A stretch of DNA of 64,000 bases, from NCBI RefSeq assembly GCF_963678635.1, contig NC_087064.1, positions 46,049,437 to 46,113,436 of the forward strand, in the 5' to 3' direction. Source of the DNA: Symsagittifera roscoffensis. Taxonomy: Eukaryota. Both the position numbers and the translations under genes were made by a program. Each line of letters begins with the position of its first letter. The stretch's first letter is position 1. The notes below the pieces were generated by a model, which was not told the origin of the DNA, searched no databases, and was given only the letters and a program-made list of their open reading frames with translations. Below, in pieces: positions 2,032 to 57,829 of the stretch.

Positions 2032-5000
2032 ATGAATGCACATCTGTATATATTAGAGCATGACTTTTTCCTGAAATAAAAAAATCACCTATCTACGTTT
2101 ATTATTCTTCACTACGTTCATTATTCACAAAAATGGGCTTTTTACATAAAGGCAAAGCTGTCACTTCACAAACACAAGCGACAAATAACAAAAAAAGAGC
2201 TCCTTTAATTAGAGAAAATAAGCCGAGAAAAAATCTTTGAAAAACAAAAGCTTGTGAAGACTAGGAGATGCAAGTGAAGGACCACCCGAACAGGAGACAC
2301 CTGCCTTAAACACTTACCTTCAAAAACAAGGGGAGATTTTTGCGGAGTTTCGCAAAAGAGGCAATTCGAAAGCTAAAAATTTCTTTTTCAACCAGTTCTC
2401 TTGCCTCAAAACAAATTTTACAAAAGAATTCAACTCCAGGCAACACCTTTTAACACGAAAACCATCAACATGTCTGCAGTTAGAGTTAAAAGGACACAAA
2501 AAAGGCACCGCCACATCATCGTTAAAAAGTCGAGTCAGAGAGCAAAAAAAAATTGAACAAGGAGCCGCACTTTCAATTGAAATGCAGATTTGATTAAAAT
2601 TTCAATGATCTTTCCAGTCGCTCTCAGATCAGACATCCTTTTACATCAGTTTTTTCATGGTGATATTTAATAACGTATTTTGAAGTTTTTCGTGGGGTTG
2701 ATTCTTAGCATTCAAAATTTCGGCGCTAGAGCCTTAACGATCTGAAATACAACAAGAAATACAAAAAGAGGTAATTATTCCGACAGAAATAAAGCCGACA
2801 GCCAATAAGCTAAATATCAATTAAAACCTTTTGGCAAAACCAGATTGGAACAAAAAATGCATGAACTAACCACATACGATCCACAAGAATTATATATGTT
2901 TTATACGCAGGGTATTAAACATAATTCGGAAATTAAACCGACAAAGCTTAAGTCGACAAACAACAGCAAGAAACTAATACCGAAATTGTATACTTATGCA
3001 CACAATGGTTATAATTCTAGCTATTGAGTTTTAAAAAAAACTATACTAGCAGACACTAGTTAAATTTAATTTTTAAGACATTGAGCATTTCAGCAGCATC
3101 ACAAATGATTCAAAAGCTTTTATTAACTAAGTTCTTTACCCGAAAAAAAATCTGTATTCCGATTTGATAACACTTGCATCAAAAATTACATTATCTGCAT
3201 AAGTTTGAATTTTTTTTCTTCGAAATAAAGGAGAACAGAAACGTTATATTTAAAGAGCCATCAGACCGTAGTATCCTACCTTAAAGGCAAATGTTCCGAG
3301 AATAAACTGCTGACAAACCTAGTTATTTTAAAAGTGAGCGAAAAAAATAAACATGTTCATACAGTGCTGATTTAAATTATCCGGAAAAAACGAACGAAAC
3401 TTGAACTTTCAAACGCGTTTTCCTCAAATTGAGTGGAGATGAGACAAAAAGCGAAGAGAACAAAAGTTGCTTAGAATTTCACCAGAATTAATATGGTGCC
3501 ATTTTTTCCCGAAATTTTCAACAAAAATTTTACCCCAAAAATGGGTCATTTTGGCTTTTTTCAATTAATCAAGAATTGCGCTGAAATTACTTTGTTAATT
3601 GATAAGAAAATTATATCACAAGAAGCTTCCTATGCAGCTCAACAAGGTTTAAGAACGGTTAAGTCTCCAAAAATGAATGCACATCTATATATTAGAGCAT
3701 GACTTTTTTCCTGAAATAAAAAAATCACCTATCTACGTTTATTATTCTTCACTACGTTCATTATTCACAAAAATGGGCTTTTTACATAAAGGCAAAGCTG
3801 TCACTTCACAAACACAAGCGACAAATAACAAAAAAAGAGCTCCTTTAATTAGAGAAAATAAGCCGAGAAAAAATCTTTGAAAAACAAAAGCTTGTGAAGA
3901 CTAGGAGATGCAAGTGAAGGACCACCCGAACAGGAGACACCTGCCTTAAACACTTACCTTCAAAAACAAGGGGAGATTTTTGCGGAGTTTCGCAAAAGAG
4001 GCAATTCGAAAGCTAAAAATTTCTTTTTCAACCAGTTCTCTTGCCTCAAAACAAATTTTACAAAAGAATTCAACTCCAGGCAACACCTTTTAACACGAAA
4101 ACCATCAACATGTCTGCAGTTAGAGTTAAAAGGACACAAAAAAGGCACCGCCACATCATTGGTAAAAAGTCGAGTCAGAGAGCAAAAAAAATTGAACAAG
4201 GAGCCGCACTTTCAATTGAAATGCAGATTTGATTAAAATTTCAATGATCTTTCCAGTCGCTCTCAGATCAGACATCCTTTTACATCAGTTTTTTCATGGT
4301 GATATTTAATAACGTATTTTGAAGTTTTTCGTGGGGTTGATTCTTAGCATTCAAAATTTCGGCGCTAGAGCCTTAACGATCTGAAATACAACAAGAAATA
4401 CAAAAAGAGGTAATTATTCCGACAGAAATAAAGCCGACAGCCAATAAGCTAAATATCAATTAAAACCTTTTGGCAAAACCAGATTGGAACAAAAAATGCA
4501 TGAACTAACCACATACGATCCACAAGAATTATATATGTTTTATACGCAGGGTATTAAACATAATTCGGAAATTAAACCGACAAAGCTTAAGTCGACAAAC
4601 AACAGCAAGAAACTAATACCGAAATTGTATACTTATGCACACAATGGTTATAATTCTAGCTATTGAGTTTTAAAAAAAACTATACTAGCAGACACTAGTT
4701 AAATTTAATTTTTAAGACATTGAGCATTTCAGCAGCATCACAAATGATTCAAAAGCTTTTGTTAACTAAGTTCTTTACCCGAAAAAAAATCTGTATTCCG
4801 ATTTGATAACACTTGCATCAAAAATTACATTATCTGCATAAGTTTGAATTTTTTTTCTTCGAAATAAAGGAGAACAGAAACGTTATATTTAAAGAGCCAT
4901 CAGACCGTAGTATCCTACCTTAAAGGCAAATGTTCCGAGAATAAACTGCTGACAAACCTAGTTATTTTAAAAGTGAGCGAAAAAAATAAACATGTTCATA

Positions 5001-11800: not shown

Positions 11801-11821
11801 AGTTTTTTGAAAATTTAAGTT

Positions 11822-12540: not shown

Positions 12541-12744
12541 AGTAAATCCAACTAAAGATAAAGAGAAAGAATTGGAGACAACAGTTTGACAGTAGTATTA
12601 TTTTGAACTGAATCGTCGAAACCAAATTGAAAGTTAAAAAATTAGGAGACGGGTAGACAGGCATAATCAAATTAAATGAAAAAGCAGGTATACAGACAGA
12701 CAGACCTAATTTGGCCTCGAAAAAAAAATTACTGATAACTAATT

Positions 12745-12890
12745 GAAAAATTTTCTTAAGCATTGCAATATATGATATAGCTTAAACATGAAAAAATTCT
12801 TTCGTTAAACATGCAAAATTATTATGCTTAAACATGGGAGATAGCTGTCACTCGCATTTAAATATAGTATAGATAGATATAGATAGTGAT
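12745..12890. repeat. Short dispersed repeat. A second copy lies at 41685-41830.
   Basis: The shared sequence is ..cttaagcattgcaatata.gatatagcttaaac.tg.aaa....tt.cgtt.aacatgcaa.a....atagtatagatagata... Each copy sits at the distal edge of a satellite array. Confidence 0.6.
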
Positions 12891-15700: not shown

Positions 15701-16084
15701 CCCAAAAAATGAATTGAATTTTCTGAAAAAAAAATAAAATTAAAAAAGAACACATACATTATCTCAAACCTCGTTTCAATTTTTAAATCTTTTATGTTTG
15801 ACACCTATTTGATAAAACTGACCCCATTTTATAAAACTACCTCACGGATGACCTTTGATTCCGCCCTCAAATTGAAAACAAAACACTTTGGAAAAATATT
15901 CATTTCTTGGTCGCCATTTGAAATTTTATAGAAATTATATGTTCCCTTTCATTTGGCAACTAAATTGGAAACTTAAAAGAAATCAAAACTCAAGCCGACA
16001 AAACAAAACTGAGCGTAAACATCTAAGACTTATTCCGAGAAAAATGCCAGAATGCTTTCACGCTGCTCATTAACCCATAAAAAC

Positions 16085-16540
16085 ATAACCAATCGAAGAT
16101 TGGAAAAGAGTAATGAGCGCAAGTAAACAGAAAAAAACACTGACTTTGTTGAATAAATCTCAACTTTCGAAGAAAAAAAATAGATGCCTTTAAAGCTCTT
16201 TGAATTTCTAGAACGATTTATGATTGCGCTTTTTTGATAACATTAACCCAACTTGAGAAAACTGGATCAACAGGTGAAGTTGTAATTCCGCTGAAAATGA
16301 AATTAAATTCCACTTTCGAAACTAGAAATTGTTCGCGAATTTTCGCGCCATTTGCACGTTCGTAATTGGAGAAGGCTAATTATGTCACTTTCAGCAGATG
16401 AATTGCAATTGAACTCAAAAAGTGCATTATAACTAAGTGCATCATTATTCTAAGACTTTTTCCTGAAAAAAAAAACAAAAAAATTCAGCAAGACCTATAT
16501 AAGAGCCTTCACTATGTTCATTACTCTTGAACATATTCCA
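16085..16540 (+). mobile_element. R1 family, a nonautonomous interspersed element of about 430-480 bp (SINE or MITE-like, type undetermined). This is the representative copy.
   Basis: The consensus landmarks are CAGTTGGAAAAGAGTAATGAGCGCAAG, then (A)n, then GCTCTTTGAATTTCTAGAAC, then TTGAGAAAACTGGATCAA, then TCCACTTTCGAAACTAGAA, then CACGTTTTTCG, then GACCTATATAAGAG, then TTCACTACGTTCATTACTCTT. Other copies, all in plus orientation, lie at 1893-2031, 14105-14470, 17625-17870, 22545-23035, 24805-25205, 27325-27640, 30335-30770, 32340-32545, 40065-40575, 42425-42700, 43420-43500, 46905-47215, 52915-53300, 53725-54155 and 55690-55960. Confidence 0.55.
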
Positions 16541-17094: not shown

Positions 17095-17615
17095 AAGAAA
17101 AATTAACACAGAGGCGAAGTTGCAATTCGCATACACAAGCAAAAACATAACCGATAACGCTACTGGGAAAAACTGAATGATTAAAATTTTGAGTCTACAT
17201 AATTGCTAAGTGACGCAAGCCAATTGTGACGCATTAGCAGTACCAGTCAATTCGAAAAAAAAAGAAATTTAACAACTAACATGCCTCAATTTATAAAGCG
17301 GACAAATTTAACTAGTACAAAAAAGTTCAGTAAAAATATCCGACCCTGCACAAGTTCGAACCCTCTTATTTTGTTGCTAGTCTCTTTCCCTACCTCTACG
17401 CTACAGATCCATGATACCTTGAAGCTAAAATGCTATTTGAAATAAAATAGTCCATGTTAATGTCCTTAGCATTGGCTGTAGTTAATAGCTGGATCAAAAC
17501 GAACACTTTCAAAATGAACCCATTTTGTCGCAACAATTGCATCGCAACAATATTTGCGACTTAGGTTGGAAAAAAAGAGTTCATACTATAACACAAGCTA
17601 TGTTTGTGTAAAAAC
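17095..17615 (-). mobile_element. tRNA-related SINE, subfamily A, about 520 bp, full length.
   Basis: On the minus strand it has an internal tRNA-like module: a D-arm-like tgtagcgtagaggtag and a T-arm-like GGGTTCGAACTTG (plus strand ..caagttcgaaccctc..). It has an internal T-run. Its 3' end carries the stem-loop GCGAAGTTGCAATTCGCATACACAAGC. It is near-identical to the copies at 20435 and 44395. Confidence 0.6.
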
Positions 17616-18069: not shown

Positions 18070-18657
18070 TTAGCATGCATTTTCAGCTTGGTCTGCGCTG
18101 ACTCTCCTAGGAACTGCCAAGTAGCTGGTGGTCAGGGAGGTTCTCGTTGTTTCCTGCAAGTATACACCTCCATTCGGATTTCCGAGCCGATTCGAAGAAT
18201 CTCTTGGTGTACCTGTGCATCCTGGTTGCTGTCTTCTTGTATTCTGGCTCATATTCCTCACATTTCGCGCCCTTTCATTTCTAATAGCCCCTGGACATAG
18301 CCACATTTTTACTAAAGTTGCAGACGCGCTTCTGAAGCTTCGGTTGTATGTCAGAAAAAGCGGGAAATTAGACAGGGAAATTGTGAATATCAGGTAGGTC
18401 GTCAGTTTGTACACAATCGCAGGGGGGTTTTTGTATATAAAATCAACAGACATGTAAGGAACCCAGGTGAGAATGAAGATGACAGTGATAGTTAGGAACA
18501 GATTGTAGGCTCGTTTGATCACGTTTCGTTCCTCTTGTTCCTTCGCGTGAGATACATGTCGTCTGCTACAAGTGGACTCGGGGGTAACCGAGAAACGTTC
18601 AACAGAGTTGGATGCAATCATTTTGTAATTAGTTCCAGGTACCGAGGCTGCGCTTTC
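18070..18657 (-). CDS. GPCR exon 3. It covers the end of ICL3, TM6, TM7 and about 100 aa of C-terminal tail, ending at the stop.
   Basis: The acceptor tttcttttttgtttag|GAAAGC is in phase 0 and follows a 204-bp intron (18658-18861). TM6 is FLTITVIFILTWVPY, a CWxP-like motif. TM7 is SLSNFPLFLTYNRSF, an NPxxY-like motif. The ORF runs to the stop at about 18070. The assembled protein is about 449 aa. Confidence 0.65.
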   Translation of the reverse strand, partial: ESAASVPGTNYKMIASNSVERFSVTPESTCSRRHVSHAKEQEERNVIKRAYNLFLTITVIFILTWVPYMSVDFIYKNPPAIVYKLTTYLIFTISLSNFPLFLTYNRSFRSASATLVKMWLCPGAIRNERARNVRNMSQNTRRQQPGCTGTPRDSSNRLGNPNGGVYLQETTRTSLTTSYLAVPRRVSADQAENAC

Positions 18658-18861
18658 CTAAACAAAAAAGAAATTAATTATCGATGCTTGAGAACATAAA
18701 CATGTCGAACTCGCTAATTCAGTAAATACAAGTTATCAGAACTCTTTCCGTTTAGATGCTTTTCTTCATTAATTCCATTCTTAATTTGTTAAGTTGAAGC
18801 GACAGATGTCCCAAACAGTGAAAAATGAGGCCTAAAACAATAATGACTTGACTTGACTAAC

Positions 18862-19204
18862 GTTTGATTCCCTATGTTTGGTCAACGATGCCGTCTGTGC
18901 CATCAAGTTTTGCGCATTACCCTGACTAGCAGATGCACCTCCATGCTTAGCGCGACACAACGCCACAATAATCGCCGCATAACAGGTGACCATAATCACC
19001 AAAGGTATGACTGCATTGATCACAAAATTACACAGAGTGAATTGCAGAGAGGGTGAGTATATGAAACACAGGAGTTGTCCGTCGAAGTTGGGCGCGTTGA
19101 AGTAGATTGCAGAAGCAACGGGAAAGAAGGAGGAATAGAGGACGACGAAGAGCGAGAAGAGCAAGTATGTCTTCTTGGTCAGCGTTGACATCAAGTAGAG
19201 GTAT
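18862..19204 (-). CDS. GPCR exon 2. It covers TM4-TM5 and the start of intracellular loop 3.
   Basis: The acceptor ctatctaag|A enters in phase 2 and completes an R codon. The spliced peptide reads ..VTPI-R-YLYLMSTLTKKTYLLFSLFVVLYSSFFPVASAIYF...FVINAVIPLVIMVTCYAAIIVALCRAK.. The donor AAAC|GTTAGT is in phase 0. The intron back to exon 1 is about 4 kb and contains SINE copies. Confidence 0.6.
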
Positions 19205-20434
19205 CTTAGATAGTTACACGTTACAGAATGCACTTTCATTTTGTTCGCAGAAAACGGAACACGCTTTAAAACTTTTTCTCAACACATCACGTCTCAGGTT
19301 GAAGTTCAAAACAAGTTGACAACAAACAACGGATTTAATCCTTTTACTCCGTTATATCTAATATTGATTGAATTTACATTTTTGTCAAAAAATGAAATAT
19401 GAGTACTTAAAAAATCTTAATTGACTGGTTCAATATCTATAGTTTGTATTCACGAAAGCATCAAAAAAGTTCGCTCAGCTTAGAAAACGAACTTGAGTTC
19501 ATAAAAAAGATCGACTTCACTTTTTATTACCAACGCTCCGTTCATCTTGTCTCAATTTATGACATAAACCTTTCGCTCAAAGCATGAAGATTTAATTTAT
19601 ATTAGCCTAGCTTCGAAACTTATATTTGCCTAGCAATTTTCATTAGTGGGATTATAGCGATTCAGAAATAGGGAACAAGGGCATATTAACCTCAGAGTTT
19701 AGGAGGCTTTCAATTAATCAGTACTTTCCATTCTGCTTAGAGAAACCTTTTTCAATATTCTAATTTTCATTTAAATGACATTGCACGGCGAACTTTTGAA
19801 TTTTTTCAAGGTAATTTAGCAATTTCTGTAACTTCCCTGATCAACTACCAAATTTGGCATTGAAATTCTCAAATTATCGATAACAAAAAAGTTTTCTTAT
19901 GAGTTTAAGAGTAAAATCCAATTGTAACAAGCTAGGCTGGGTTTGATTCACAGCTAGACAATCCTCAAAATTTTAAAATAATTCCTTGTAGTTGAAGAAC
20001 ATAATTTTAGCTTTTAATCTAATTAGCCACATTTCGCAAACAAGATTGTTACGATCGGTCAAGTGTATGAGCATATAAGATTTTTAGTTGAAAAACTCTA
20101 CTTATACCTAATTTTGACTCGTCAAACAAAAATTCCTTTGAGAATCAGACGGAAACGTGATTACTAATGCTAACGTTCTCAGAAGACACATCCTTAGCCC
20201 CGCCTCTTTAAACAGAAAAACTATCAGTCCATTCGATGTTACACAAAAGAAAAACAAAACAAACCCCTCCTATTGAAACTCCTACAAACTCTCCTTTCAA
20301 AATTAAACGCCGAGCAGCAATTCCATTTTGGTTACCTGAAAGCGTACTTCGAGCTCCACCAAAAAAAAAGAATTCGAAAAATCAGCTTTAATACAAATCA
20401 AATGAAAAACCGCCTATACGCATAGCTAACAGAA

Positions 20435-20955
20435 CATTAACACAAAGGCGAAGATGCACTTCGCATACACAAGCAAAGATACGACCGATAACGCTACTGG
20501 GAAAACCAAGAAATTTTGTAGACTCAAAGTTTTACTCAGTCCGTCAGAAGTGACGCACGCCAATTATGAGTCTACATAATTTCAAAGTGACGCAAGCCAA
20601 TTATGACGCATAAGAAGTACCAATCAATTTGAAAAAAAAAAAAGAAATTTACCAACCAACATGCCTCAATTTATAGAGCGGACAAATTTAAATATTATCA
20701 AAAAGTTCAGTAAAAATATCCGACCCTGCACAAGTTCGAACCCTCTTATGTTGTTGCGCGTCTCCTTCCCTACCTCTACGCTACAAATCCATGATATCTT
20801 GAAGCTCAAGTGCTATTTGTAATATAATAGTCTGTGTTAATATCCTTAGCATTGGCTGTACTTAATAGCTGATTGTTGATCAAAATGAACACTTTCAAAA
20901 TGAACTTAATATTTGCGACTTAAGTTGGAAAAAAGACAGTTCATACTATCACACA
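20435..20955 (-). mobile_element. tRNA-related SINE, subfamily A, copy 2, in an intron of the GPCR gene.
   Basis: It aligns end to end with 17095-17615. Its 3' stem-loop is a perfect palindrome, GCGAAGATGCACTTCGC. Confidence 0.6.
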
Positions 20956-21419
20956 AGCTTTGCATGTGTAAAAAAGGACCAGTGAGCTCGAGGAAATTTG
21001 CCTTAGTAATTTGCCTTAGAATTTCAATTTGAATTGCAGTAATCAATTTACCAATCGCAAAAATCAAATTTAAAAGTTTTCCGCAAAAAATACAGGATCT
21101 AAACAAGTGATACATCAATCACATCGTCCATAGACACGAAATTTTGATTTTAATTATCAAGAAATCAGCCAATAGATAATAACAGAGTTCAGTATTCTTT
21201 TACTGCAATGAAACAGTCGACCAACAAATTAAACACTGAGTGATGATGAATTTCGCAAAAAGCAAAGAAAACTACCAAAACGAGCTCAGAAAATGCCCTA
21301 AAACATTAAATAGAGAAAGCCTCGGATACTACGGGATTCGAATCAAGACCGCCAAACTAGGAGTCTCAGACCTTACAACATAGGCAAAACTTCGCTTCGC
21401 AAACAGTAACGAGAAACGA

Positions 21420-21725
21420 AAAAAAGAGCTCTATAAAGTGCAATAAAGAAATAGAAATAAGCCTCGAATTAGTAAAAACTCGGCAAAATATTAGATTCGA
21501 GACTGCGACCTAGAAATTAAGAGTCTCAAACACTACACACTCAGCCACGGATGCTTTATAGGTCAAAACACTAGACACAAATCAAGCAGAGAGCAGATTC
21601 ATTTCAATTGCCAATGCTACAGTGAAATTTTCATACGAATGAACACTATTAATGACCACTTTTTTCGAGTTAGGTTAGAAAAATAGAAGGTTCGTAATTA
21701 TCGCTAGTGTAATCACTTACCCATG
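21420..21725 (-). mobile_element. tRNA-related SINE, subfamily B, about 300 bp, with a partial duplicated head at 21295-21415.
   Basis: The plus strand reads ..aagcctcgaattagtaaaaactcgg..gattcgag..ctcagccacggatgc....ttcgagttaggttagaaaaatagaaggttcgtaat. It carries a GATTCGAATC T-loop-like motif. It shares the gagttaggtt(a/g)gaaaaa..ttc(a/g)ta head motif with subfamily A. Confidence 0.5.
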
Positions 21726-22544
21726 GCGGCTTGATCTGGATTTTCACGCTTACTGTATTTTCAGTTTTGAGGGAGCGCATTAAAGTTTGGTTGGAAAAAA
21801 AAGACTGATCGTATACCACTCGCTTGTGTAAAGAACTCATGAATTTCACATGAGAGGTTTAAGCAAACCATAATTTAAAATTATGTTTATGGGTTGTTTA
21901 AACAAGCGAGCGTTATCACTTTGGACATGAAGCTAGACTCCTTCGCAATACGACACTACCTACCCTTATGTTAACATATTTATATTTAAAATGTAATTAA
22001 AAACTAGAGATTTGAAAATTGATATCACGGGCGACATAGAAAACGCCTATATCAACTATTTGAAGTGGCAAAAAACTTCGTAATTTAAGTTTTTTTCATA
22101 TTGAAAACTTGTTTCTCAGAAAAGCAATAGCATTTTTACGCATGACATCCATGAAATAATAGTGAGAAAAACGGAATTCGATGGAATCCTCCCAGCTTGC
22201 TTTTAGGTCAATACAATAGGTTAAATAAAAGTGATGGTTAAGTTGTTCTATACCTTTTTTGTTCACAGCCGTTTGTTTCTGCCTTGTTTAAGGAACGAAT
22301 GTTTCAGCCTCAACTTGTGTTGGTGATCTCAATTCCTAGTTATCTCAGATCGTGTCTGTGAACTGATGTCCTTTTGACATTGATTCCAAAACTTTGACAA
22401 TTATTTTGTTACTCGGGGAGTTTTTTACGCAGTTAGCTTAGTACTTCATTAAGCGTTTTCAAGGTTGACAATATGGAAAATAATAACTTTAAGAAAATGG
22501 CGATGACCTATATAAGAGCATTTACTACGTTCACGACTCTTAAG

Positions 22545-23035: not shown

Positions 23036-23162
23036 GCTTTAAAGAATTGCCTTTAGTGGTGGAGCAATTAAGATACAATTTTCCTCCATTTAGAAAAATT
23101 GACTGGCATTGGAAATTGACTATTTGACCTGAATTATACGTGCATTCTGTAAATAACTATAC

Positions 23163-25560: not shown

Positions 25561-27944
25561 AATATAAATATATAAATAATAAAATTTTCAAATGCGGCTG
25601 ACTACAAACGATAGCATCACTTCTTATAACCAAATAAGAGGCCGAACTTATTTAAAAAAATTTCAGTCTATTTTCAATCAACGAAGTGTATCGATCTTAA
25701 ACAATCAAAATGAATTTCAAGACATCGCCTTTTGGTTATGACGCTGAAACAACTGTCGGATGCTAGCTAACAATTTCTATCTCTTTTGGCCAGCTCACCG
25801 GAAAGACTTCATGAATAACTTCAGTGTATTATTGCGAACAGAAAATGGCATCAAAATCAGCCAAATAGACTGCGTATCATTTAATAGACGTCATATTGAC
25901 AAAGTTTAAAACGTTGGGAAGCTGAACGAAGAATCATTTCCAAAACATCCAAAAACCACTACAGTTGAATTTACTGAATGAAAAAAACTTGGTCCGATAA
26001 GCTTTCAATAACTTCAGCTGACTGCTCCAATAAATTCAATATAATTCATATCAACTCGTCTCAATAATCAGCTGGCGAGTTAATAAGCACTTTGGTGTCG
26101 ACAAAACTGTTGCTCCTAATTGCCAATTTTACTGTCTGACGTCGATTCGACTATGAAACAACGATAGCAACCGAAGCGTTCTGGGATTTTACGAGGGCAC
26201 AGATTTACAAAAAACGGCAATTTTTTTCGAGGCTGACCGAGTTAATTTACGAGTACAGGTCATTGAATTACGAAAAGCAAGACCCTATATCAAGTTGAGA
26301 CCAAAATTTCCTCAACAGCTATGCTAAAAAAAGGTGAGAAATCATACAAAATCAAATGATCAAATTAGATAAGGTGAATCGAATGAATACGAAGCATCGT
26401 AATTACTAGGTACTTAAATAGGGTAAATTGGAAAATTCAATTACAGGAAATGAATCCCGCACAGAGATTTTTTACTTAAAAGATGGCGTTTGAATAAAAA
26501 TTTTAGTTACTGAGGAATTAAACGGTGTCAAAAATCCAATCAACCAACAACGCAGCAATTTCAAGTCAAATAAGAATGCAGCAACCAAAAATCTAGCAAA
26601 ATTGCCCAATTAAGGCATTCAGGAGTACTTTACTGTGTTCACATTGGCATTAACTACACAATAACAACGCTGCTAACTAAAAACAGTACATGTGACTTGG
26701 ACAGGTATTTACGGTTGCCAGTCCAGCATGATTGTCAATCAGACTTATAATTGAACCGTTGTTATAAACTCGATTAGATAGAGTATCGTTAAGATTAAAT
26801 CCAAAATTTTAATAAAATCGGAATCACTCAGTACTGCTAAAGAGTTTGAACGATAGATGGCGAAAAGATAAAAACTATCAGAATAGAAAGCATTTTTTAT
26901 TATTTATCATGATGCAGATAATGCAGAATTTTTTCATGGATAATTTTTTTTGAGAAATCTGATTATATTGAAAGCCGCTAAGCCAAAATTTTTCATATCT
27001 GTCTTTTTTTTTCAAAAAACGATAATAAGAAAAATGAAAGTTACATTTAAAAAGATACAAAGCGGTATTGAAAGTTCAATTTTAAAAAAACGATAATAAG
27101 AAAAATGAAAGTTACCTTTACAAAGATTCAAAGCGGTATTGAAGCCGACGATTTTCGAGCAGACACCCGTTGAGCCAAAATAAATGATTTAATAATAATA
27201 AAAAACGTTTTGAGTCTCAAAATCTTAAATTACACCCTTCAATAATCACAAGCGTAGAAAAATCGTTTCGCTTGTCCAACGATCATATGATTCCACTCAA
27301 TCGATTAAGTATAAACCAAATATAGCCAACAGACAGTTATGAACAAAAGGAAACAAAAAATAATGACTTGTTTCTAGAAACAATTTCAATTTACTAATTT
27401 CAAAGAAAAATATTGGCCTTAAAGCTCTTTGACTATTTGTGATTGACCGTTTTTACGAATGAATATCCCATTTTAGAAAAATGGATCAATGGATAAAATG
27501 TTTCTTCCGCTAAGAAACTGAAAAATAAACTCCACTATCGAAACTAGAGTAGATCACGTTTTTGGCGACCTTACTACTTTTGCTGTTCGATACTATAGCT
27601 TACCTTCCTTTGAACAAGGGAAATGAAATGGAGTTTTTGTAGCTGTAGTTTTTCAATTTTGTCAAGTTATTTTTCCAACTAATTTTTTCCAACATAATTT
27701 TCAGAAGCATTTTTGACTTTTGTGGTTTTTTCATTCACTTTGTTTTTTCTTTGCATCTTTGCGTCTTTGTGTATTTTTCTTTGCGTCTCTGTGTAAATTT
27801 TTTTTGTAAGTTTTTTTTTCAGGAAAAATCTTGATCGCTAAAACTCGATGTTGCGGTTTCACTAACGATTTTTTTTCATCGAATTTTAGCGAACAAATTT
27901 CAAGATTTTTCCAGAAAAACAAAACAAATTAAAAACAGAGGCGA

Positions 27945-28600
27945 AGCGGAGTTTCGCAACACTTGCGATGCAAAAAAAAACACATAGTGAATGAAAAAAT
28001 GGACAAAATGAAAAATACTTCTGAAAATTATGTTGGAAATAATTACTTGGAAAAATTACTTGACAAAAGTTGAAAAATTACAGCTACAAAAACTTCATAC
28101 TTGTATTGGACAAAGTTCATAAACAGGCCTTAATAAATAGGAATCCTTTACCGAGCGGCAACAAAGTTGACAAAAATTGGGTCGAAACCTGTTTAGCCGA
28201 AAACAAAACTGTTGTCATAAAAAATTTCATAAAAATTAAAAATAGTTACGACCCATCCGAACTGAAACACATAATGCAAAACAGATATATATTTTGATAT
28301 ATATATATATATCTCGAAATAACGCAAAATAATTTGACTAAGTCAATACTTCATTAACTGAAATTTTTTCATTATAAAAAGAAAGAAAAAATTTTAAAAA
28401 CTCAAAACCAGGCATGGTAAATTTACAAATTTGTGAAGTTCCGGTTATAAAAATTGTTTAAACTGAAACAAAACCCATGCTTTAAAAAAAAGCAATATTA
28501 AAACCCTGCCAAATAAAAAATCGATGACGTTTAAAAGACCAGAAAAAGAACCAACAGGAACTAGACGAAAACCACGAACACAAAATGTAAAATTAAAAAA
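27945..28600. mobile_element. R4 family, a nonautonomous repeat of about 650 bp with a terminal GCGAAG..CTTCGC stem-loop.
   Basis: The start is CAGAGGCGAAGCGGAGTTTCGCAACACTTGCGATGC. Related copies lie at 31180-31700 and 31795-32335. Head fragments lie at 28875-28925 and 56625-56700. Orientation is uncertain. If the stem-loop marks a 3' end, as it does in SINE-A, the elements are on the minus strand. Confidence 0.4.
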
Positions 28601-31600
28601 AAAATTGAAAAGATAATCACCACCTGAAACGGGTTTTAACTTATTACTACTTAACTTCTTCTTGCGGAAGATACTACTTAGAAGTGCCGATCTTGTGGAC
28701 AAAGTTGTTTACGGGAAAAAAAACTAGTACCCGATTACAATACCCTTGCTCATCGCAAGGGTAAAGACCTGTATAAGACCATTCACTACTATCATGGCTC
28801 AAAACTTCTTACTGCGTAAACCAAAATATTTAAGAAAACAAAAACCACAAGTATACCAGACCTGAGTAAAACTAACATAAACACAAAGGCGAAGCAGAGC
28901 TCCGCAACACTTGCAATGATTAGAAAAAGATATGAAAGTCGGACTTTTTTGAAAAGTAAAGCTGAAAAATCACTAGAAAAGATAAATTGAAAAAATGACA
29001 ATCAGGCGGCAACTAAGGCAAACAATTCTGGTTGAACACCAAAAGAAAATTTGAGCTTAAAATTTTTTAATGGTCTCAACTCATACCCTTAGTGGTTTAC
29101 GGCATTAAAATACGACATTAGTCGCCTATGTAGGGGAGAAACTACATTCTTTAAAGAGAACTGAATACCAGATTTGGCTGTGTAGTTTTCAAGAAATGAA
29201 CCATACCTGCTTTTCTACACAAAAAATTAGGGTGTAACCATCTGTGCAGGGAAGATCTTTACATCATATTCTTCGAACTGAATCATTAACCTCAGAATTT
29301 GCGGGTAGTGTTTGAGAAAAAAAAGAAAATACCAAAAAACGATCGAAATCTCAAAAACTTGACGAGCAATATGGAGAAGCTTCTTTGGTTGAAAAAACGC
29401 ATATTTCAGAAAATGATTCAGGGATTCGGAATTGATAAGACTTGCTAATCGCAAGCACAATAATCGCACACGTAATAGATCATTGCCCACGTAATAATTC
29501 AGTGAACGGAGCAGACAGAAAATTAAGAAAAAAACGTTTGTAGTGAAAAATTTTCAAATAAATAAGACTTCATTAAAAAATCATGAAACTCAATTACCTC
29601 CACCAATGGGTCTTTAAAATGGAATAAAGGAATTTAGAAGGAATTAAGGAATTTAGAAGAAAACTGAATCTTCAAAAAGAGTCCTTGCTTTGGGATCTAA
29701 GCCGACAAAAACAAACATTAATAGACGGACGATAGTCTGAACAAGCAGAAAGATTTTAGTTTTTAAAAAACGGCAGCAGGTCGGATTAGCACCAAAGACC
29801 TCTGTCGTCTCAACTAGCTGTGTTGCCTCTAAGGCAGATGCTCTGGGTGAAGCAAGATGAAACAGATACGAAATCTTAATAGTATTCTTTACAGAAAAAA
29901 GTCTTGTACAGAGTTGTTTGCCAGAAAAAAGTCTGGTAGTATGTTGCAATATCCTCGCTTGTCTCAAGAGTAACTAGTGACTTTAGCATAACGCATAACT
30001 GTGTACAGTTGTTTTCAAAATTAAAACAAAAAAACTTATCTTTCTGCATAGTGTACTCCTGCCCTAAGATAACACCTAGCTGCCCGCTTTAATAGCTCAG
30101 AACAAATAAAGCAAAACAGTCAAACCGGTATTTCTCGACACCGAGAAAACTTTTGTGAAAATTATAAATGTCGCTTCAATCACGACTAAAAATGCTGTAA
30201 AATGATATATCACTCAGCCCATAGTGATGATTAATTGTGATATCTGGTTTTAGTGTGAAAAAGTAAAACACACACGAAGACAAACTTCCTCCCCACTTTA
30301 ATTGCTTGGAACATTAACACTCAAGAAAATAGCCCACAAACAGTTGGAAAAGAGTCAATCAACGCTATGAAACTACACATCAACAACAACAATTTATGAT
30401 TAACACGGTTTTTATATAAAAAAAAAACTAACAGATTTGAGAAAAATGGATCAATGGACTATTTATTTTATTTCGTTGAGTCTCGAAATTAAATTCCACA
30501 TTCGAAACTACAAATCGATCACGTCTTTTCGCGTCATTTCCTTTTTGGCAACTGGAGAGCGAAATTAACCTACCACTAAACAAATGAACTTGAATTGAAC
30601 TCAAAATGAGCACATATACCGAAGTGCATTCTTATACGCATTAATATGAACGCACTTCTGTAGTTAAAAGAGCATTTCAAGACTTTGTTTTCCTGGAAAA
30701 TAGTCACCAAGACCTTTACAACAGTATTCACAACTCTCATCAGCTCGTAACAATCCTCTTTTCAATCTCTTAAAAGAAATCATATTTATATTCAAATCAG
30801 AGACGGTTAAAATAAAAAGAATCTAAAAAGATTGGAAAACAATTGAAAAACTTTACCCAGAAAAACTTCATATAGTTAAATTTAACTGAAAACTCGAACA
30901 AAGTGTACCCTTGAACGTAAATCCAAAACTTTCTTTAAATTGGAACCATTTTGAAATACGAGAAAAGTTCACTGGTAGCAACTGAAAGAGAAGAAATCGC
31001 CGTATTGGAATGTCATTTTTAATTTATGGTGCAGATATTTTAGTCTCCAGATATATGACAATGCTTTCCTTTGCTTTTACAAATTGCGAGTTAAAATTAA
31101 AAACAGAAACTGAAAAATTATTGAAAAAGTACTTCAACCAAAAAAATGAAACAAAGTATTGAAAATAAACTCAGAGGCGAAGCAGAGCTTCGCAACACTT
31201 GCGATACCAAAAATAGTGTTCTAAGATAGTGAATGGAAAAAAGACGAATTTTTTCTGATGATCATGAGGATAAATAATTTGAAAAAACCGAAAAACACTA
31301 CACGTACCAGAAACTTCATGTTTGCATTAGAGATTTTCATTGCCTTAAAAAGCAATGAAAATCATATACCGACAAAACCTACTGATTAAAACCTATTGAA
31401 CAAAACCTACTGAAACAAACAATCGAATTAGAACATAATATGCCCTCGACATTACGCAATATAATTTGACTAAACTGATATAGCATAAACCGAAAATGCT
31501 CAATTCAAAAATAAAATTGTTAAAATCAGACTAGGTAAATGTGCATTTTACTTCAAATTATATTTTAAAAAATATGAAATAAAACAAAATTCATGCTTTA

Positions 31601-33899
31601 TAAAGTAAACCAAAAAACCGTAGCAGATAAAAATGGCATTGAAGTTGAACGGAAAACGAACCGACGGAATCCAGGACGAAAATCACAAATCCGACAAAAT
31701 CAACATTTTTTCGAGAAAATTATTTGAAAAAAATTATTACTTACACCTTATTACTCACTAAATGAGGAAGTGTGACCAATGAGAAAAATAGTAGAAAACC
31801 GATTGGAATACCCTTGATAATGACATAGGTTAAAACATTGCATTATTAGATAGTGAACAGAAAAAGAAGAAAATTGTGAGAAAAAATTACTGAGAGTACA
31901 AATATTGAGTAAAAAATTACACAGACAAAAATTTCATAATTGTATTAGATGATGTTCATAAACAGCCTTGAAAAACAATGGGAATCAATTAACACGCGGC
32001 AATAAAGGCTAAAAAACTGAAGTCGACTGTCATTGAGCCGGAAAAAAAGTTTTCATGAAAAGTTTTGAGGTAATAAGTTTTAAACGTTTTTACGACCCAA
32101 CCGTACTCAATACATAAAAATATTTTGCAACTCCGCAATATAATTTGAAAAAGCCGACATAAGAAAAACCAAAACCGTTAAATCAATTTGGAAATTAAAT
32201 AAACAAATTAATTCGCAATCAGATTTAGTGAACTCATAAATTACAGAATTTTCAATTAATAAAAACTGTTCACATCAAAGTAAAATCCATGCTTTGGAAA
32301 ATATGCCCACAGAAAGCCGGACAAGATAATATAAATGCCAATTAAAAACATCGGCAACTGACAGTTAAAAAAGAGTAACGAACGCAAGGAAACAGGGAAA
32401 AACACTGATATGTTTTTTGATAAAACTTAATTTTCGAATTTCAAAGAAAAAAAATATATGCCCTTTTAAAGCTCTTTGAATTTCACGAAAAAATTATGAT
32501 TGGTGCTTTTTTGTTTAAAATAACCCAATTTGAGAAGTACGTAGCCACTTTTTGATGTTGAAAAACGGTTCTGATATTTCATAGTTCCCATGATGAAACT
32601 ATGTTGACTATTACCAAATTACAACCATTTCAATTTTTTCGGACTAGTCTTTTTACTCTGATTTGGCCAATTTCTACCAAATTTTTTGGCTGAATTGTCT
32701 GCATTTGAATAAGATTGAAATCAATTGACTTGTGTACTAATGTTGATACTAGACTAAGGAAACCTTGAGAGCTAAGCGAGTACCCCTCGCAAATGCGATG
32801 ATTTTATAACCCAAATCAACAAATAATGCCTTATCTTGTTTTAAAGAAAGTTTTTGAAAATCACACCAGCTTAAAATAATTACTTCTCAAAAGTGTCATT
32901 AATGCGAGTTAGTTCCAACCTGATAATCTCAAAAAAAAATACCTCCAAAAGTGAACTAAATGCTTTTCGCCATCATGGAAAAAGATGATTAATTTAGCAT
33001 ATAACATGAGTTTCTGTACAAGCAACAATCTTTTCAAAATTCTTCTTGATATTTGACTATCAAACTAAACTTATTTGCTCTAATAACTTAAATTATAACC
33101 TTTTGAACTTTATTTAAAGTTAAACTAGCATTTGAAGTGTCCACGCTTACAAATATTTCCATAGCAACTATAACTATACTGAGATGTTTATTTGCAGCAT
33201 TGTGAAATGAAACCAGAAACCTGTTGTTCCGAACACGTCCAAACTTTGAACTCGGACGTTTTTTAAATGCTTAATCAGGTACCAAAAACAAGCCCCATAG
33301 CGCTGAGTGAGTGCTATAGATGTATCATAATTAAGTCTCGCTTCGATTTGAAATATTTTTGTTCTAAAATTTCGTAAAAGTTCTGTTGAGAAACAACGGT
33401 ACAAAACTTTGCTTATGACAATTTTGAAAGCGATTGAGTTAACAAAACGTAGCAATCGAGAAAACTAAATGAAAAAGTCAAACAAAACACTTGTTTAGCG
33501 TTCAACTTATTTCGATGTAATCGGTGAGTTAAAGCACCACAAAAAAAAAACGAAAAAATTATTCTGCTTCGATAAATAAGGTAAGAAAATCAAGCGATAC
33601 TTGCACAGTATACTTGCATTTTTCGGTACTTGAAAACTTAGCTCGAAGACCATGACCAAAGCTTTTTCCAATAATATCAATTTGACGCCCCTAAATTAGC
33701 GTTACATAACAAAAATCCAGGTAACCATTGTTTACAATGCCATTATTGTAAAAAGGATATAGCTCACACATAGCATTTCGATCCTGAGCTGAATAAAGTC
33801 AGAGTTGAACTGCAAGTGAAATTTAAAACAAATAGAACTCTCTTTCGTTAAGATAATCAGAGAATCAGAAAAAGCATCTAACTCAAGCATCCCTCAGTG

Positions 33900-36250: not shown

Positions 36251-37319
36251 AAACGGCAAATATTACCTTTCAGTTAGATGAAAATATTATTTTCAGCTAG
36301 ATATTCCAGTTCAGCCACTTTTTACAATTAGATATTCCAATTCGTCTAGATTTTGAGGAAATACCAGTGCAACGAACATTCTGGTTACAAACCTCTTGCA
36401 ATATTGCTTTCTTTAAGGGTAGAGCACCAGTATGAGATGTAAAATTCTCAATGGGAAAAAGTAACCAATTATAAATCCATCAACTAGTGCTCTGTGAAAA
36501 GTACAATTGATTGCTTAAGGTTTTCAGTAGAAAAAAAAACGCGAACACTTTCAAATGCAAACGAAAATCTTCGGCAAAATTTAAATTGCTGACAAGAATT
36601 TTATAAAAGTGCAGCATTTAAAATTGACTATAATAACAACAACAGCATCTTCAACGTCTACAATAACAGCGCCATCACAATCTCTGAATAGGAGAAAGTA
36701 AAAATCAAAGATAAAACCAAGCAATGTGAACAAAAAGGAATCGACGAACAAGAAGAACCTGCAATGGGGCGGACCAAACAATTAATATGTATCTCCAGCA
36801 TCAGTGTGCCAAACGTCAACGATACGACCGTGAAAACATTTTGAAGCAGTTACAGCTGATTCGTCATTGACAATTCAATTAATGCTTGATCATTAAAACT
36901 GATTCTCATGACTTAATAGAACTTGTCGGCTCAAAAGTTTTATTTTGTAAATATTTTACCCAGATCTTTAAATTCTGGCCACTAAATTTAATAAATTTAT
37001 CAGACGCTCAAATCCACACTAACTTTGCATGTAATGTACACAGAGGCGAAGTTGCACTTCGCATACACAAGCAAACATTGACCGATAATGCCAAACATTG
37101 ACCGAAAAAGTCTTTGGGAATAACTGAACAATTCGCGTTACGCTATCAGCGATATGAATAAATTCTTCAAAGCGCGCATAAATTAGTCCACAACATGGCC
37201 AATTTGACTTTTTAAACCCCCACAACTTTACAAAAAATAATCGGAAGTAAAATATCTTTTTACTTTTGAACTGAGGAAGTCTTCAAGATATCTTCAATGG
37301 GGTAAAAAAAAGTAAACAG

Positions 37320-52898: not shown

Positions 52899-52914
52899 CT
52901 GAAAATTAAAACGT

Positions 52915-53300: not shown

Positions 53301-53374
53301 ATTAATTTTATATGTTTTTCAAAATAAAAAACAGCGAGAACACGGCAAAAAGTATCTCAATAAATAGCAATAAA

Positions 53375-55318: not shown

Positions 55319-57829
55319 CTAAAAAAGACAAAACTAAGACATAAAAAGATAAGCTATGTGAAAAAAAAACAAAGTAAAAACAAAAAACTAACGGAGAAAA
55401 ATGAAAGATCTTTCCTATTTTTCAGTTAACTTTTGCTGTTTTTAAGACCAACAACAACCGAACCATTTAACAAGAGAATTTCATAATAGCTCATTTAAAT
55501 TCAACCTATGCGAAGCAATCTAGTGTGCGCAGAGGCGCAGCACGTCATCGCATCACTTTCATAACAAAACTATATGCTATTTAAAAACAATCAAATGATT
55601 TGAAAAATTGCAATATACCTTTCAAATTATAGCCAACAAGTAAATGGATAAGTTAATGAGTTCAGGGCAACCGAGATAAAAAATGATTGACTTTTTTTAA
55701 CCATATTCAATGATGATGAAATACCTCACATTACAGCTCTTTCAATTTCAAAAATCTTTTATGATTGAAACTTCTTTCAGACAATTATCTTAGAGAAAGC
55801 TGGGTCAATGCACAACTTTTCATTCCGCTGGGGTTTCTCATAAAAAAAAATTTGAACCCAACAATTTTTGTGCACCATTCTGCCAGAGCGGAACCTGCCT
55901 TCCTTTTAGCAAATAAGTTTGTATTCAATACCAAGCAAACACGCCGGACATTTGAAATTTAAATCAGCAACAACGGAACAAAATTTACGTATAAGAAACT
56001 AAGCCGACAATCTTTGATCCGATTATAATTTAAATTATGATTTAAACAAATCATCTTGAACAACAATGGACAACGGTTGCAACTGCAAGTAAAAGGAAAA
56101 ATTTTTACAGCACGAGCCAAATCAGTGATGGGGCAACTCAGCCAACAATATTTGAGCTGAAACCACTTAAACCGAAAACAATATTTTTTAAGGTTTTTCA
56201 CAAATCTTTCAAGTCCCCCCTGAAATAGAATAAACAACACTTGCACATGCAACTACAATGAAAACTGTCTACAGCACAAGCAAAATCCGTTGTGGCAATG
56301 TAGGCAAAAAAATTAAGCGAACAAACGAACAACCAAAATTTCCCTTTTCTCCGACTTTTTTTCTTCATTTTCCTTGATACTGAAAAAAAAACAAGGTCCG
56401 GCCATAACTCGAACCCCAGACCTCAGGGTGCAAAGGCAACTGCTTTACCTCCGTGCCAAGGGGGAAGCAACCTGAAAGATGTAAAGAGAAAAGAAGAGAA
56501 GTGAAAAGAAATCAGCTGCATGGTCAGCAGGGGATTCAACTGAGTTAATACGCTAACCGGAAAAAGGCCCTATATAGCGTAAGCAACCAAAAAAATCGGA
56601 CTTTTGTAACAAATAAATGCACACTTTTAGACACAGAGACCAAGCGAATCTTCGCATCACTTGCGATACGACAAAAACATGCATTAGATACGGATTAGAT
56701 GCAAATGAACAGAGACATTTTAACGAGCTTTACAACATCTACTAGTGACCTCTGCGAAACTATTGCATAGTTATCAATCAGAATTGCCAAGGAAAATTTT
56801 GAATTCCTATACTGCTATAACGCATGCCGCTTTACAGCGCTTGACAAAAAACGCGGAGTACGACCAATTAGTGTCGGGTAGGTGATTCGACGAACAATTG
56901 CGCGCAGTATTATACAATGCTTACAAAAAATCTCAGTCTACTTTGCAGAAACACTGAGCTCTGCTTAAGTAAAAATCGGGTATCGAATATGCAATTCATT
57001 CACTCAAAAATTTTCAATACGGAGGAATCACACGCAATGCTTTTAATGGATGCAAAAAAAAAACGTTTTTAACCGTTTAAACCGCGACCTCGCGCTAAAA
57101 AACAAAACGTTGCTTTAGAAACAACTTTAAAAACCTTTTGATAATCTTGACGTCAATGAAATTAACGATAATTGTGTTCTGGGCTCCGAGGATTCTCTGA
57201 AGATTCGCAAGAAAGCATTCGCATTATAGGCTCTGAAGATTCGCATGAAAGCTTCATATATGAATAAGCTGAATAACATTCCAATATTTAGACGAAATTA
57301 GCGGAACATGCAAAACATCGGTAATAACCTAAAATTTATATGAAGAAATACTTCAAACTGCAACAATCTCTTGGAGACTCCTGATTATATACTATCAAAA
57401 GAGATAATGTCCAACTTACTAGACCACTCCGCATACGACATGAAATACCGTAAATCTTTTCCCGTCCAGTTAGAGACGGCGGCCTGAATCTGCTGTTACC
57501 TAAAGATCGTGAATATGAAAACTCGCGATATCAGGCTGTTTGCAAACCAACTACGAGTATACAAGAAAAATTGATAGGTAATTAAAAAATGAAAAAGCGA
57601 AGATGTTGAAATAAAAGAATTAGCAACTAAGAGCCAAATTAACTGACAAAGAGATATATATATACTCGCTTAGCCTCGAAGAAAGCATCATCGAGTTGAC
57701 CTAATGCACTCCCACTGAAACGTTAGAACTTGAATCTGACCAAATCTGAATTCAGATATGGTATATCTTTCAGATACGGATGGGAACCTAAGAATATGAC
57801 AATGGCATGTGCATGCGGCGAACAGTTCA

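What the first reader, a model, noticed from the sequence alone, without database searches (positions are those of the whole stretch)
17095..17130. Shared terminal stem-loop GCGAAG-N5-CTTCGC across unrelated nonautonomous families
SINE-A copies have the stem-loop at their minus-strand 3' ends, at 17100, 20445, 37045 and 44400. R4-family copies have it at their ends, at 27950, 28885, 31190 and 56645. Both carry a near-palindromic GGCGAAG(N5)CTTCGC hairpin followed by A(A/T)(A/C)CAC(A/T)(A/T)GC. The SINE-A instances read GCGAAGATGCACTTCGC and GCGAAGTTGCAATTCGC. The R4 instances read GCGAAGCGGAGTTTCGC and GCGAAGCAGAGCTTCGC. By analogy with known SINE-LINE partnerships, a conserved 3' hairpin is the usual recognition element for a partner LINE's reverse transcriptase. 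This suggests a single LINE lineage mobilises several SINE families here. The CR1/L2-like relics at 61 kb and 63.8 kb are candidates.
Basis: inference. Interest (0 to 1): 0.5.

Follow-up and report, generated by a model that had tools for sequence, protein, structure and literature searches.

The report
Rolling-circle transposon end hairpin, not SINE/LINE
The shared GCGAAG-N5-CTTCGC hairpin is real and terminal, but it looks like the 3' end signal of small non-coding Helitron-like (Helentron/HLE2-type) DNA transposons, a known kind of repeat, rather than a SINE tail read by a LINE reverse transcriptase.

Summary
GCGAAG-N5-CTTCGC occurs six times with at most one mismatch, all on the + strand (0.04 expected by chance). 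Degenerate copies lie at 2152, 3792, 21384, 44403 and 56639. Flanks diverge exactly 7 nt outside the stem, so the motif is terminal.

The SINE/LINE reading does not hold. The far end of each element is also conserved. Read on the minus strand, every family has the same layout:
- a short T run;
- a 10-13 nt subterminal repeat with its own complementary partner at the 5' end;
- the inverse of that repeat at the 3' end, followed by the hairpin, CTCTGTG and a flanking T.

The repeat sequence differs between families, but its two copies co-vary. One copy sits in a paralogous empty site inside an A/T run with no target duplication. Forty-nine copies in a related eukaryote's metagenome contigs show the same terminus, and 45 of them have the same flanking base. 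No tRNA-like head was detected.

This layout matches HLE2/Helentron non-autonomous elements (HINE, DINE-1-like). The hairpin is most likely the termination signal for a RepHel transposase. No autonomous partner was found. A striking orientation bias of the elements was also noticed.

The parts
17107..17614 (-). Family A copy ('SINE-A'), complete. It has the 3' heptamer CTCTGTG (17107-17113), hairpin (17114-17130), 3' subterminal repeat (17133-17143), 5' repeat plus complementary partner forming a palindrome (17591-17609), and a T run (17610-17614).
   Evidence: Alignment of three copies. End profiles. Paralogous empty site in a family-B copy. Inverted-repeat table.
20441..20975 (-). Family A copy, complete. 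Hairpin at 20448-20464. The 5' palindrome ACACAAGCtttgCATGTGT is at 20951-20969.
   Evidence: The subterminal repeats match 12/13. The hairpin folds at -6.1 kcal/mol, z = -3.7.
37039..37076 (-). Family A 3' end (hairpin 37046-37062) of a copy whose interior is interrupted. The matching 5' end is at 38424-38484.
44403..44938 (-). Family A copy truncated within the hairpin at its 3' end. The 5' palindrome is at 44917-44935.
   Evidence: The 5' palindrome folds at -7.6 kcal/mol.
27934..28765 (-). Family R4 copy, complete. Hairpin at 27941-27957, 3' repeat ACACTTGCGATG (as read on the + strand) at 27959-27970, and 5' palindrome ACCCTTGCtcatcGCAAGGGT at 28742-28762.
   Evidence: The repeats match 11/12.
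28882..28920 (-). Family R4 3' end, with hairpin at 28889-28905 (one stem mismatch).
31170..31834 (-). Family R4 copy. Hairpin at 31177-31193 and a decayed 5' palindrome at 31810-31830.
   Evidence: The hairpin folds at -7.5 kcal/mol.
56632..56669 (-). Degenerate R4-type 3' end (ACCAAGCGAATCTTCGC).
   Evidence: Profile E = 3e-5.
2141..2181 (-). Old copy of the same 3' end with both CpGs decayed (GCAAAG..CTTCAC, then ACACAAGC). It is duplicated at 3781-3821 by a recent 1.64-kb tandem duplication.
21378..21836 (-). Family C copy with a degenerate hairpin (21384-21400) and an A-like 5' end (21786-21836). Further C copies at 48913-49260 and 53329-53640 lack the hairpin but keep the ACACTAGCGA / TCGCTAGTGT repeats.
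   Evidence: C48 repeats match 10/10.
16083..16534 (-). Family B copy. It has the same architecture but a different 3' hairpin (CCAATCgaaGATTGG, 16089-16103) and different repeats (AAGAGTAATGA at 16107-16117, TCATTACTCTT at 16518-16528). There are about 19 copies or fragments in the window.

Best explanation
The hairpin is the 3'-terminal stem-loop of non-autonomous Helitron-like elements of the HLE2 group (Helentron/Helitron2). These are the elements called HINEs, or DINE-1-like elements.

Read on the minus strand, each element has this layout: 5'-T(2-5), then a subterminal repeat (ACAC-NN-GC...), a 3-5 nt spacer, the complement of that repeat, the interior, the inverse of the subterminal repeat, 1-2 nt, GCGAAG(N5)CTTCGC, and CTCTGTG-3', followed by a flanking T.

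The inferred mechanism is as follows. A RepHel (HUH nuclease plus helicase) transposase encoded elsewhere in the genome nicks the 5' end and unwinds the strand 5'->3'. It recognises the right-hand repeat plus stem-loop as the stop-and-cleave signal. The excised strand is then integrated in a T-rich site without target duplication. Families A, R4 and C, plus an older one, share the hairpin and heptamer module but have different co-varying repeats. They are therefore probably mobilised by one related set of Helentron-type transposases.

What is shown here: the anatomy, terminal position, end complementarity, target preference, absence of target duplication, head-to-tail arrays, and conservation in a second species. 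What is inferred: the rolling-circle mechanism and the terminator role of the hairpin.
For: 1. The motif is terminal. Flanks diverge just outside CACAGAG in 6 window copies and in 49 copies from a related eukaryote (JAAUXW01 contigs).
2. The flanking base is A on the + strand (T on the element strand) in 45/49 copies, against an A frequency of 0.32.
3. The opposite end is also conserved and shared between families.
4. Inverted repeats of 10-13 nt sit at fixed offsets in each family, and their sequence differs between families: A 12/13, R4 11/12, C 10/10, JAAUXW01 10/10, B 11/11.
5. On an 8-element alignment, the repeat helix has 87.5% of cells paired against 32-43% when the partner is slid. 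Four of its 10 pairs change on both sides.
6. The 5' repeat is accompanied by its complement and forms a palindrome.
7. The flanks of A17 join into a contiguous family-B sequence, so this is an empty site. It lies in an A/T run with no duplication.
8. Head-to-tail junctions occur at 22488-22545 and in L038.
9. Another element in the window has 166-bp central repeats and a GATA microsatellite, as oyster HINEs do.
10. This layout is the published definition of HLE2/HINE: 12-16 nt inverted repeats, a stem-loop after the right repeat, and T-T insertion without duplication (PMC4067079, PMC7492417, PMC11417382).
Against: No autonomous element with Rep/helicase (or endonuclease) coding capacity and these ends was found. 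The window and the 50-odd related contigs have no HUH motif in any frame, and the source genome could not be searched. The exact 5' boundary cannot be resolved within the T run, so 'between T and T' is shown only for the 3' side. The stem itself hardly varies, so structural covariation in the hairpin is limited to the 7th pair (T-A versus C-G). In the metagenome copies the stem was fixed by the search pattern. The distance from the palindrome to the 3' end (7 nt) is at or just below the 8-35 nt reported for mite HINEs. Without an ORF, a 'reverse' HLE2 layout, with the stem-loop at the 5' end, cannot be excluded.
Confidence: 0.85

Rival explanations
1. The elements are SINEs, and the 3' stem-loop is the recognition element copied from, and read by, a stringent-type CR1/L2-like LINE reverse transcriptase, as in UnaSINE1/UnaL2.
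For: The hairpin is at the 3' end of the minus-strand elements. Family A has A-box-like and B-box-like motifs on the minus strand around 17340-17410. An ORF with an RT-like 'GVLQGS..LF..YVN' stretch lies at 60988-61296.
Against: There is no tRNA, 5S or 7SL hit. ARAGORN reports only inconsistent noise-level hits, and only once its threshold is lowered to 70-80%. The box-like motifs lie about 200 nt inside the element, not at its 5' end. The 5' ends are conserved across families and are complementary to the sequence next to the hairpin. There is no target duplication and no 3' repeat tail. Pfam does not call the ORF an RT, and the motif is absent from 57-64 kb.
Confidence: 0.04
2. The elements are MITEs of a cut-and-paste (DDE) transposon, for example hAT-like since the + strand end begins CAGAG, and the hairpin is part of a transposase-binding subterminal region.
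For: The elements are short and non-coding, with inverted repeats near both ends.
Against: The extreme termini are not inverted repeats of each other (5'-TTTACAC... versus ...CTCTGTG-3'). The right-hand repeat lies 25-26 nt inside the end, beyond the hairpin. No target-site duplication appears at the empty site or in four complete related copies. Precise head-to-tail arrays occur.
Confidence: 0.04
3. The elements are non-autonomous canonical Helitrons (HLE1).
For: They have a 3' hairpin close to the end, no target duplication and tandem arrangement.
Against: There is no 5' TC and no 3' CTRR. The 3' flanking base is T with the element ending in G, not an A|T site. Subterminal inverted repeats are present, and HLE1 lacks these (definitions).
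Confidence: 0.03

Closest known systems
HINEs / DINE-1-like elements, the non-autonomous partners of Helentrons (Thomas et al. 2014, PMC4067079; Drosophila, mite, mosquito)
   Same: Both have subterminal inverted repeats a few nt from the 5' end. The 5' repeat has its own complement or is palindromic. The 3' repeat is followed by a short stem-loop near the 3' terminus. T runs sit at the boundaries, the target is T-rich or TT, and there is no target duplication. Terminal modules are shared between families that differ internally.
   Different: The sequences of the repeats and the hairpin are unrelated to published ones as far as could be checked. The palindrome ends only 7 nt from the terminus. 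The families that carry this hairpin have no central tandem repeats. The autonomous partner is unknown.
Cg_HINE elements of the Pacific oyster (PMC7492417)
   Same: The layout is the same: 11-12 nt repeat plus a 7-12 nt complementary partner separated by 1-12 nt on the left, and repeat plus palindrome on the right. Another element in this window (10.7-12.9 kb) also carries about 166-bp central repeats and a tetranucleotide microsatellite.
   Different: The oyster monomers listed in that paper's supplement look unrelated to the 166-bp repeat here. Oyster HINEs are reported in both orientations, whereas here nearly all copies share one orientation.
UnaSINE1/UnaL2-type SINE-LINE pairs with a conserved 3' stem-loop
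   Same: A conserved 3'-terminal stem-loop is shared by non-autonomous and autonomous elements and serves as the recognition signal.
   Different: Those are RNA-level signals on retroposons that have pol III heads, 3' repeat tails and no 5'/3' inverted repeats. None of these defining features was found here.

Membership tests
HLE2 (Helentron/Helitron2) non-autonomous elements (HINE) | Short (about 11-16 nt) terminal or subterminal inverted repeats | tested here: met
   Repeats of 10-13 nt with at most 1 mismatch, at fixed offsets, in families A, R4, C, B and the JAAUXW01 copies. Pairing is 87.5% against 32-43% for slid controls, and 4 pairs change on both sides.
HLE2 (Helentron/Helitron2) non-autonomous elements (HINE) | [quoted passage not shown] | tested here: met
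   A 6-7 bp stem begins 1-2 nt after the repeat and ends 7 nt before the terminus. Orientation is assigned by analogy only, because no ORF is available.
HLE2 (Helentron/Helitron2) non-autonomous elements (HINE) | 5' repeat accompanied by a complementary inverted repeat or itself palindromic | tested here: met
   ACACAAGC-tttg-CTTGTGT (A), ACCCTTGC-tcatc-GCAAGGGT (R4) and ACAGTTGC-tatc-GCAACTGT (JAAUXW01).
HLE2 (Helentron/Helitron2) non-autonomous elements (HINE) | Insertion between T and T / T-rich target, no target-site duplication | tested here: met
   The 3' flank is T in 45/49 related copies. The paralogous empty site lies in an A/T run without duplication. The 5' junction cannot be resolved within the T run.
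HLE2 (Helentron/Helitron2) non-autonomous elements (HINE) | Autonomous partner encoding Rep/helicase (with or without endonuclease) with the same termini | not testable with these tools
   No HUH or Rep motif in six-frame translations of the window and loci. The source genome is not available. Scans of viral and prokaryotic collections gave nothing relevant.
tRNA-derived SINE mobilised by a LINE | Pol III promoter-bearing tRNA/5S/7SL-derived head at the 5' end | tested here: not met
   ARAGORN found 0 genes (at default). Rfam gave no tRNA, 5S or 7SL match at E<=10. Box-like motifs lie about 200 nt inside the element.
tRNA-derived SINE mobilised by a LINE | 3' tail shared with a partner LINE; simple-repeat or poly(A) end; target-site duplication | tested here: not met
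   The element ends in the unique heptamer CTCTGTG with no repeat tail and no duplication. No motif lies near the RT-like ORF, which Pfam does not recognise as an RT. LINE 3' ends elsewhere in the genome could not be examined.
Canonical Helitron (HLE1) | 5' TC, 3' CTRR, hairpin about 11 nt from the end, insertion between A and T | tested here: not met
   The ends are 5'-T(n)ACAC... and ...CTCTGTG-3', with T as the 3' flank.
MITE (cut-and-paste TIR transposon derivative) | Inverted repeats at the extreme termini and a fixed-length target-site duplication | tested here: not met
   The right-hand repeat is 25-26 nt internal, and there is no duplication.

The most novel reading that the evidence does not exclude
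In this unidentified, fast-evolving eukaryote lineage, Helentron-type elements may integrate in a strand-specific way coupled to transcription or replication. About 40 copies from at least five families in the 64-kb window lie in one orientation, the same as the genes, with one or two exceptions. In a related species, 10 of 11 copies next to Pfam-supported genes are co-oriented with the gene. If the cause is the mechanism of integration rather than selection in introns, it would be a new property of eukaryotic rolling-circle transposons.
Probability: 0.1. Interest if true: 0.6.

Novelty: new member of a known kind. Interest (0 to 1): 0.25.

Why it matters
The result corrects a repeat annotation. 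These abundant short repeats should be filed as Helitron-like (HLE2/HINE) DNA elements, not as SINEs, and no SINE-LINE partnership should be inferred from the hairpin.

It supplies precise termini (5' T(n)-ACAC-NN-GC... and GCGAAG-N5-CTTCGC-CTCTGTG-3') that can be used to find the autonomous Helentron in the source genome and to mask or classify a large share of its repeats.

The shared hairpin-heptamer module, combined with family-specific co-varying repeats, gives a natural dataset on which end features the transposase reads. The orientation bias is the only aspect that could go beyond routine annotation.

Tried and rejected
- tRNA and Rfam searches of the window and of family A found nothing.
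- Supplement text of the oyster HINE paper was searched for the hairpin and repeat strings. Only chance occurrences inside unrelated monomers turned up.
- Organism identification failed. A GPCR exon found only three unnamed metagenome proteins. An EF2 fragment from a related contig gave at most 77% identity to unnamed sequences.
- L001, a 20-kb locus from a closer relative, has none of these elements.
- The genome-contig scan returned only bacterial look-alikes, and the viral-contig scan returned nothing.
- A regex scan for Rep HUH, Y2 and Walker motifs in all held DNA gave no credible hit.
- A Pfam scan of raw six-frame references failed because of stop codons. The RT-like ORF was not recognised by Pfam.
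- A hAT-like 'CAGAG' terminal inverted repeat was rejected because the other terminus is not its inverse and there is no target duplication.
- A canonical Helitron was rejected because there is no TC or CTRR.

Full report
**Observation.** The pattern GCGAAG-N5-CTTCGC occurs six times with at most one mismatch, at 17114, 20448, 27941, 28889, 31177 and 37046. All six are on the + strand. Shuffles of the window give 0.04 matches on average and never six. A profile built from the six copies also recovers two CpG-decayed copies (2141-2181 and 3781-3821: GCAAAG...CTTCAC) and a weak one at 21378-21408. The conserved block is CACAGAG + hairpin + A(T)ACAC(AA/TT)GC. Sequence to the left of CACAGAG is unrelated between copies, and sequence to the right is family-specific. 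The motif is therefore real, non-random and terminal, at the 3' end when the elements are read on the minus strand.

**The other end.** Alignment of the three long 'SINE-A' copies (17107-17614, 20441-20975, 44403-44938) shows a sharp right-hand boundary...TTAGGTTGGAAAAA..GTTCATACTAT-ACACAAGC-tttg-CTTGTGT-AAAAA. This right-end motif recurs about ten times in the window, always on the + strand. It also occurs in a different family (C: 21378-21836, 48913-49260, 53329-53640). The R4 copies end in ACCCTTGC-tcatc-GCAAGGGT-AAA (28742-28765), with a decayed version at 31810-31830. Both termini are thus conserved and shared, which is a property of DNA transposon derivatives rather than of SINEs.

**Architecture.** Read on the minus strand, every family has the same layout:
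- a run of 2-5 T;
- a subterminal repeat (A: ACACAAGCAAA; R4: ACCCTTGCGATG; C: ACACTAGCGA);
- a 3-5 nt spacer and the complement of that repeat;
- the interior;
- the inverse of the repeat, then 1-2 nt, then the hairpin, then CTCTGTG.

The best inverted match between the two ends is 12/13 (A20), 11/12 (A44, R27) and 10/10 (C48). It always lies 25-26 nt from the 3' terminus and 2-9 nt from the 5' terminus. On an alignment of eight complete elements, the ten repeat pairs are 87.5% complementary against 32-43% when one side is slid by 1-3 columns. Four of these pairs change on both sides between families. The hairpin stem is nearly invariant and the loop varies. The seventh pair switches from T-A (family A) to C-G (R4 and the related species).

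**Insertion site.** The 200 nt left of A17 and the 300 nt right of it join into one continuous match to other copies of an abundant family, B. This is a paralogous empty site. The insertion lies in an A run of the + strand (a T run on the element strand), and nothing is duplicated.

**Related species.** A scan of public metagenome contigs with CACARAGGCGAAG-N5-CTTCGCA returned 53 loci. Forty-eight of them come from one assembly (JAAUXW01), which also holds a 55%-identical homologue of the GPCR gene in this window. The remaining five loci are GC-rich bacterial contigs.

In the 49 eukaryotic copies the upstream flank is again unrelated and stops exactly at CACAGAG. The preceding base is A in 45 of 49, against a base frequency of 0.32. 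The interior is unrelated to the window families. The repeat next to the hairpin is ACAGTTGCGA, and complete copies (L013, L044, L053, L032; 460-594 bp) end in ACAGTTGC-tatc-GCAACTGT-AA. This is once more the inverse of the repeat beside the hairpin. In L038 one element's 5' end abuts the next element's 3' end with no spacer. A similar head-to-tail junction of family B lies at 22488-22545.

**Tests of the SINE/LINE reading.**
- ARAGORN and Rfam find no tRNA or other small-RNA gene in the window.
- A sensitive Rfam scan of A17 gives only noise (E>1) and no tRNA, 5S or 7SL match.
- ARAGORN reports inconsistent 'tRNAs' on both strands only when its threshold is lowered to 70-80%.
- A-box-like and B-box-like strings exist near 17340-17410, but about 200 nt inside the element. 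They could be a captured fragment or chance.
- The ORF at 60988-61296 looks RT-like by eye but is not recognised by Pfam.
- Neither the hairpin nor its profile occurs in 57-64 kb.
- There is no 3' repeat tail and no target duplication.

**Comparison with known systems.** Published descriptions of Helentron/HLE2 elements and their non-autonomous HINE or DINE-1-like derivatives list the same layout found here:
- 11-16 nt (sub)terminal inverted repeats;
- a complementary or palindromic partner at the 5' repeat;
- a stem-loop after the right-hand repeat;
- T runs at the boundaries;
- insertion between T and T without duplication;
- tandem copies;
- often a microsatellite and about 166-bp central repeats (PMC4067079; PMC7492417; PMC11417382).

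Canonical Helitron hallmarks (TC, CTRR, A|T target) and MITE hallmarks (terminal repeats plus duplication) are not met. I therefore file the elements as HLE2-type non-autonomous elements. The hairpin plus heptamer is most likely the right-terminal signal at which a RepHel transposase stops and cleaves. That role, and the rolling-circle mechanism, are inferred from the family and not shown here.

The partner should be a Helentron-type transposase, not a LINE.

**Limits.**
- No autonomous element was found. There is no HUH motif in any frame of the held DNA. The prokaryotic scan found only bacterial look-alikes and the viral scan found nothing.
- The organism could not be named.
- Orientation (3' versus 5') is assigned by analogy, so a 'reverse' HLE2 layout remains possible.
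- The 5' junction cannot be placed to the base within the T run.

**Also seen.**
- Family B (about 19 copies) has the same architecture with a different hairpin (CCAAY-N5-RTTGG) and different repeats.
- The 5' region of family A contains a B-like 3' end remnant.
- A unit at 10.7-12.9 kb, with a second copy at 40.7-41.85 kb, has a palindrome, 166-bp repeats and a GATA microsatellite.
- Almost every repeat in the window lies in one orientation: 130 direct against 14 inverted self-matches, and most of the inverted ones are an (AT)n tract.
- In the related species, 10 of 11 copies next to Pfam-supported genes are co-oriented with the gene.

Noticed in passing
whole window; loci L004-L056: There is a strong orientation bias. 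All 10 hairpin-end hits, all 10 opposite-end hits and about 19 family-B hits are on the + strand, so the elements lie on the minus strand, the same strand as the GPCR gene. In the related species, 10 of 11 copies next to Pfam-supported ORFs are co-oriented with the gene. Oyster HINEs are reported in both orientations. The cause, selection in introns or strand-specific integration, is unknown.
   Followed up: partly
window 16083-16534 and about 18 other sites (e.g. 22543-23036, 40021-40595, 52894-53341, 53683-54169): Family B is the most abundant repeat in the window. It has the same end architecture but a different 3' hairpin (CCAAY-N5-RTTGG) and an 11-14 nt repeat pair, AAGAGTAATGAACG / CGTTCATTACTCTT. 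It probably has a second, related autonomous partner.
   Followed up: partly
window 17561-17590, 20920-20950, 44885-44916: Just inside its 5' end, family A carries a sequence collinear with the family-B 3' end (GTATGAACTCTTTTTTCCAACCTAAGTCGC versus CGTTCATTACTCTTTTCCAAC-N5-GTTGG). This suggests a chimeric origin.
   Followed up: no
window 10678-12891 and 40728-41850: This is a HINE-like unit with central satellite-like repeats. It has a palindrome CAACCtaaGGTTG (10678-10690), a 166-bp tandem array (10980-11789, 4.9 copies), A-rich low-complexity repeats (11.8-12.5 kb) and a GATA microsatellite (12864-12891). A second copy has its array at 40728-41353.
   Followed up: partly
window 2032-5312: A recent tandem duplication of a 1.64-kb unit (99.5% identity) includes an old hairpin end. 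An 81%-identical inverted partial copy lies at 5417-5712.
   Followed up: no
window 27628-28098: A 470-bp imperfect palindrome is formed by an inverted, degenerate R4-like 3' end (27635-27800, ending CTCTGTG|T) facing the R27 3' end. It is one of the very few elements in the opposite orientation.
   Followed up: partly
window 18070-23581 (minus strand): A rhodopsin-family GPCR gene lies in at least three exons (ORFs 23120-23581, 18832-19239, 18070-18621; Pfam 7tm_1). Only three distant homologues exist in the protein collection, so the source lineage is poorly sampled.
   Followed up: partly
loci L017, L026, L042, L057-L064: The same 25-nt pattern occurs in bacterial contigs (Oscillospiraceae / Ruminococcaceae MAGs and others), followed by a second palindrome (ttcttttg..ttttctttcaagaaaag..). 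This looks like an unrelated bacterial palindromic repeat and not a relative of the eukaryotic element.
   Followed up: no
Pfam gives no RVT hit at E<=0.1. An 18-20 nt tandem repeat lies downstream at 59222-59325.
   Followed up: partly
window 47463-47861 (minus strand): This ORF matches Pfam DUF5920 (E = 1e-6). It is probably an exon of another minus-strand gene.
   Followed up: no
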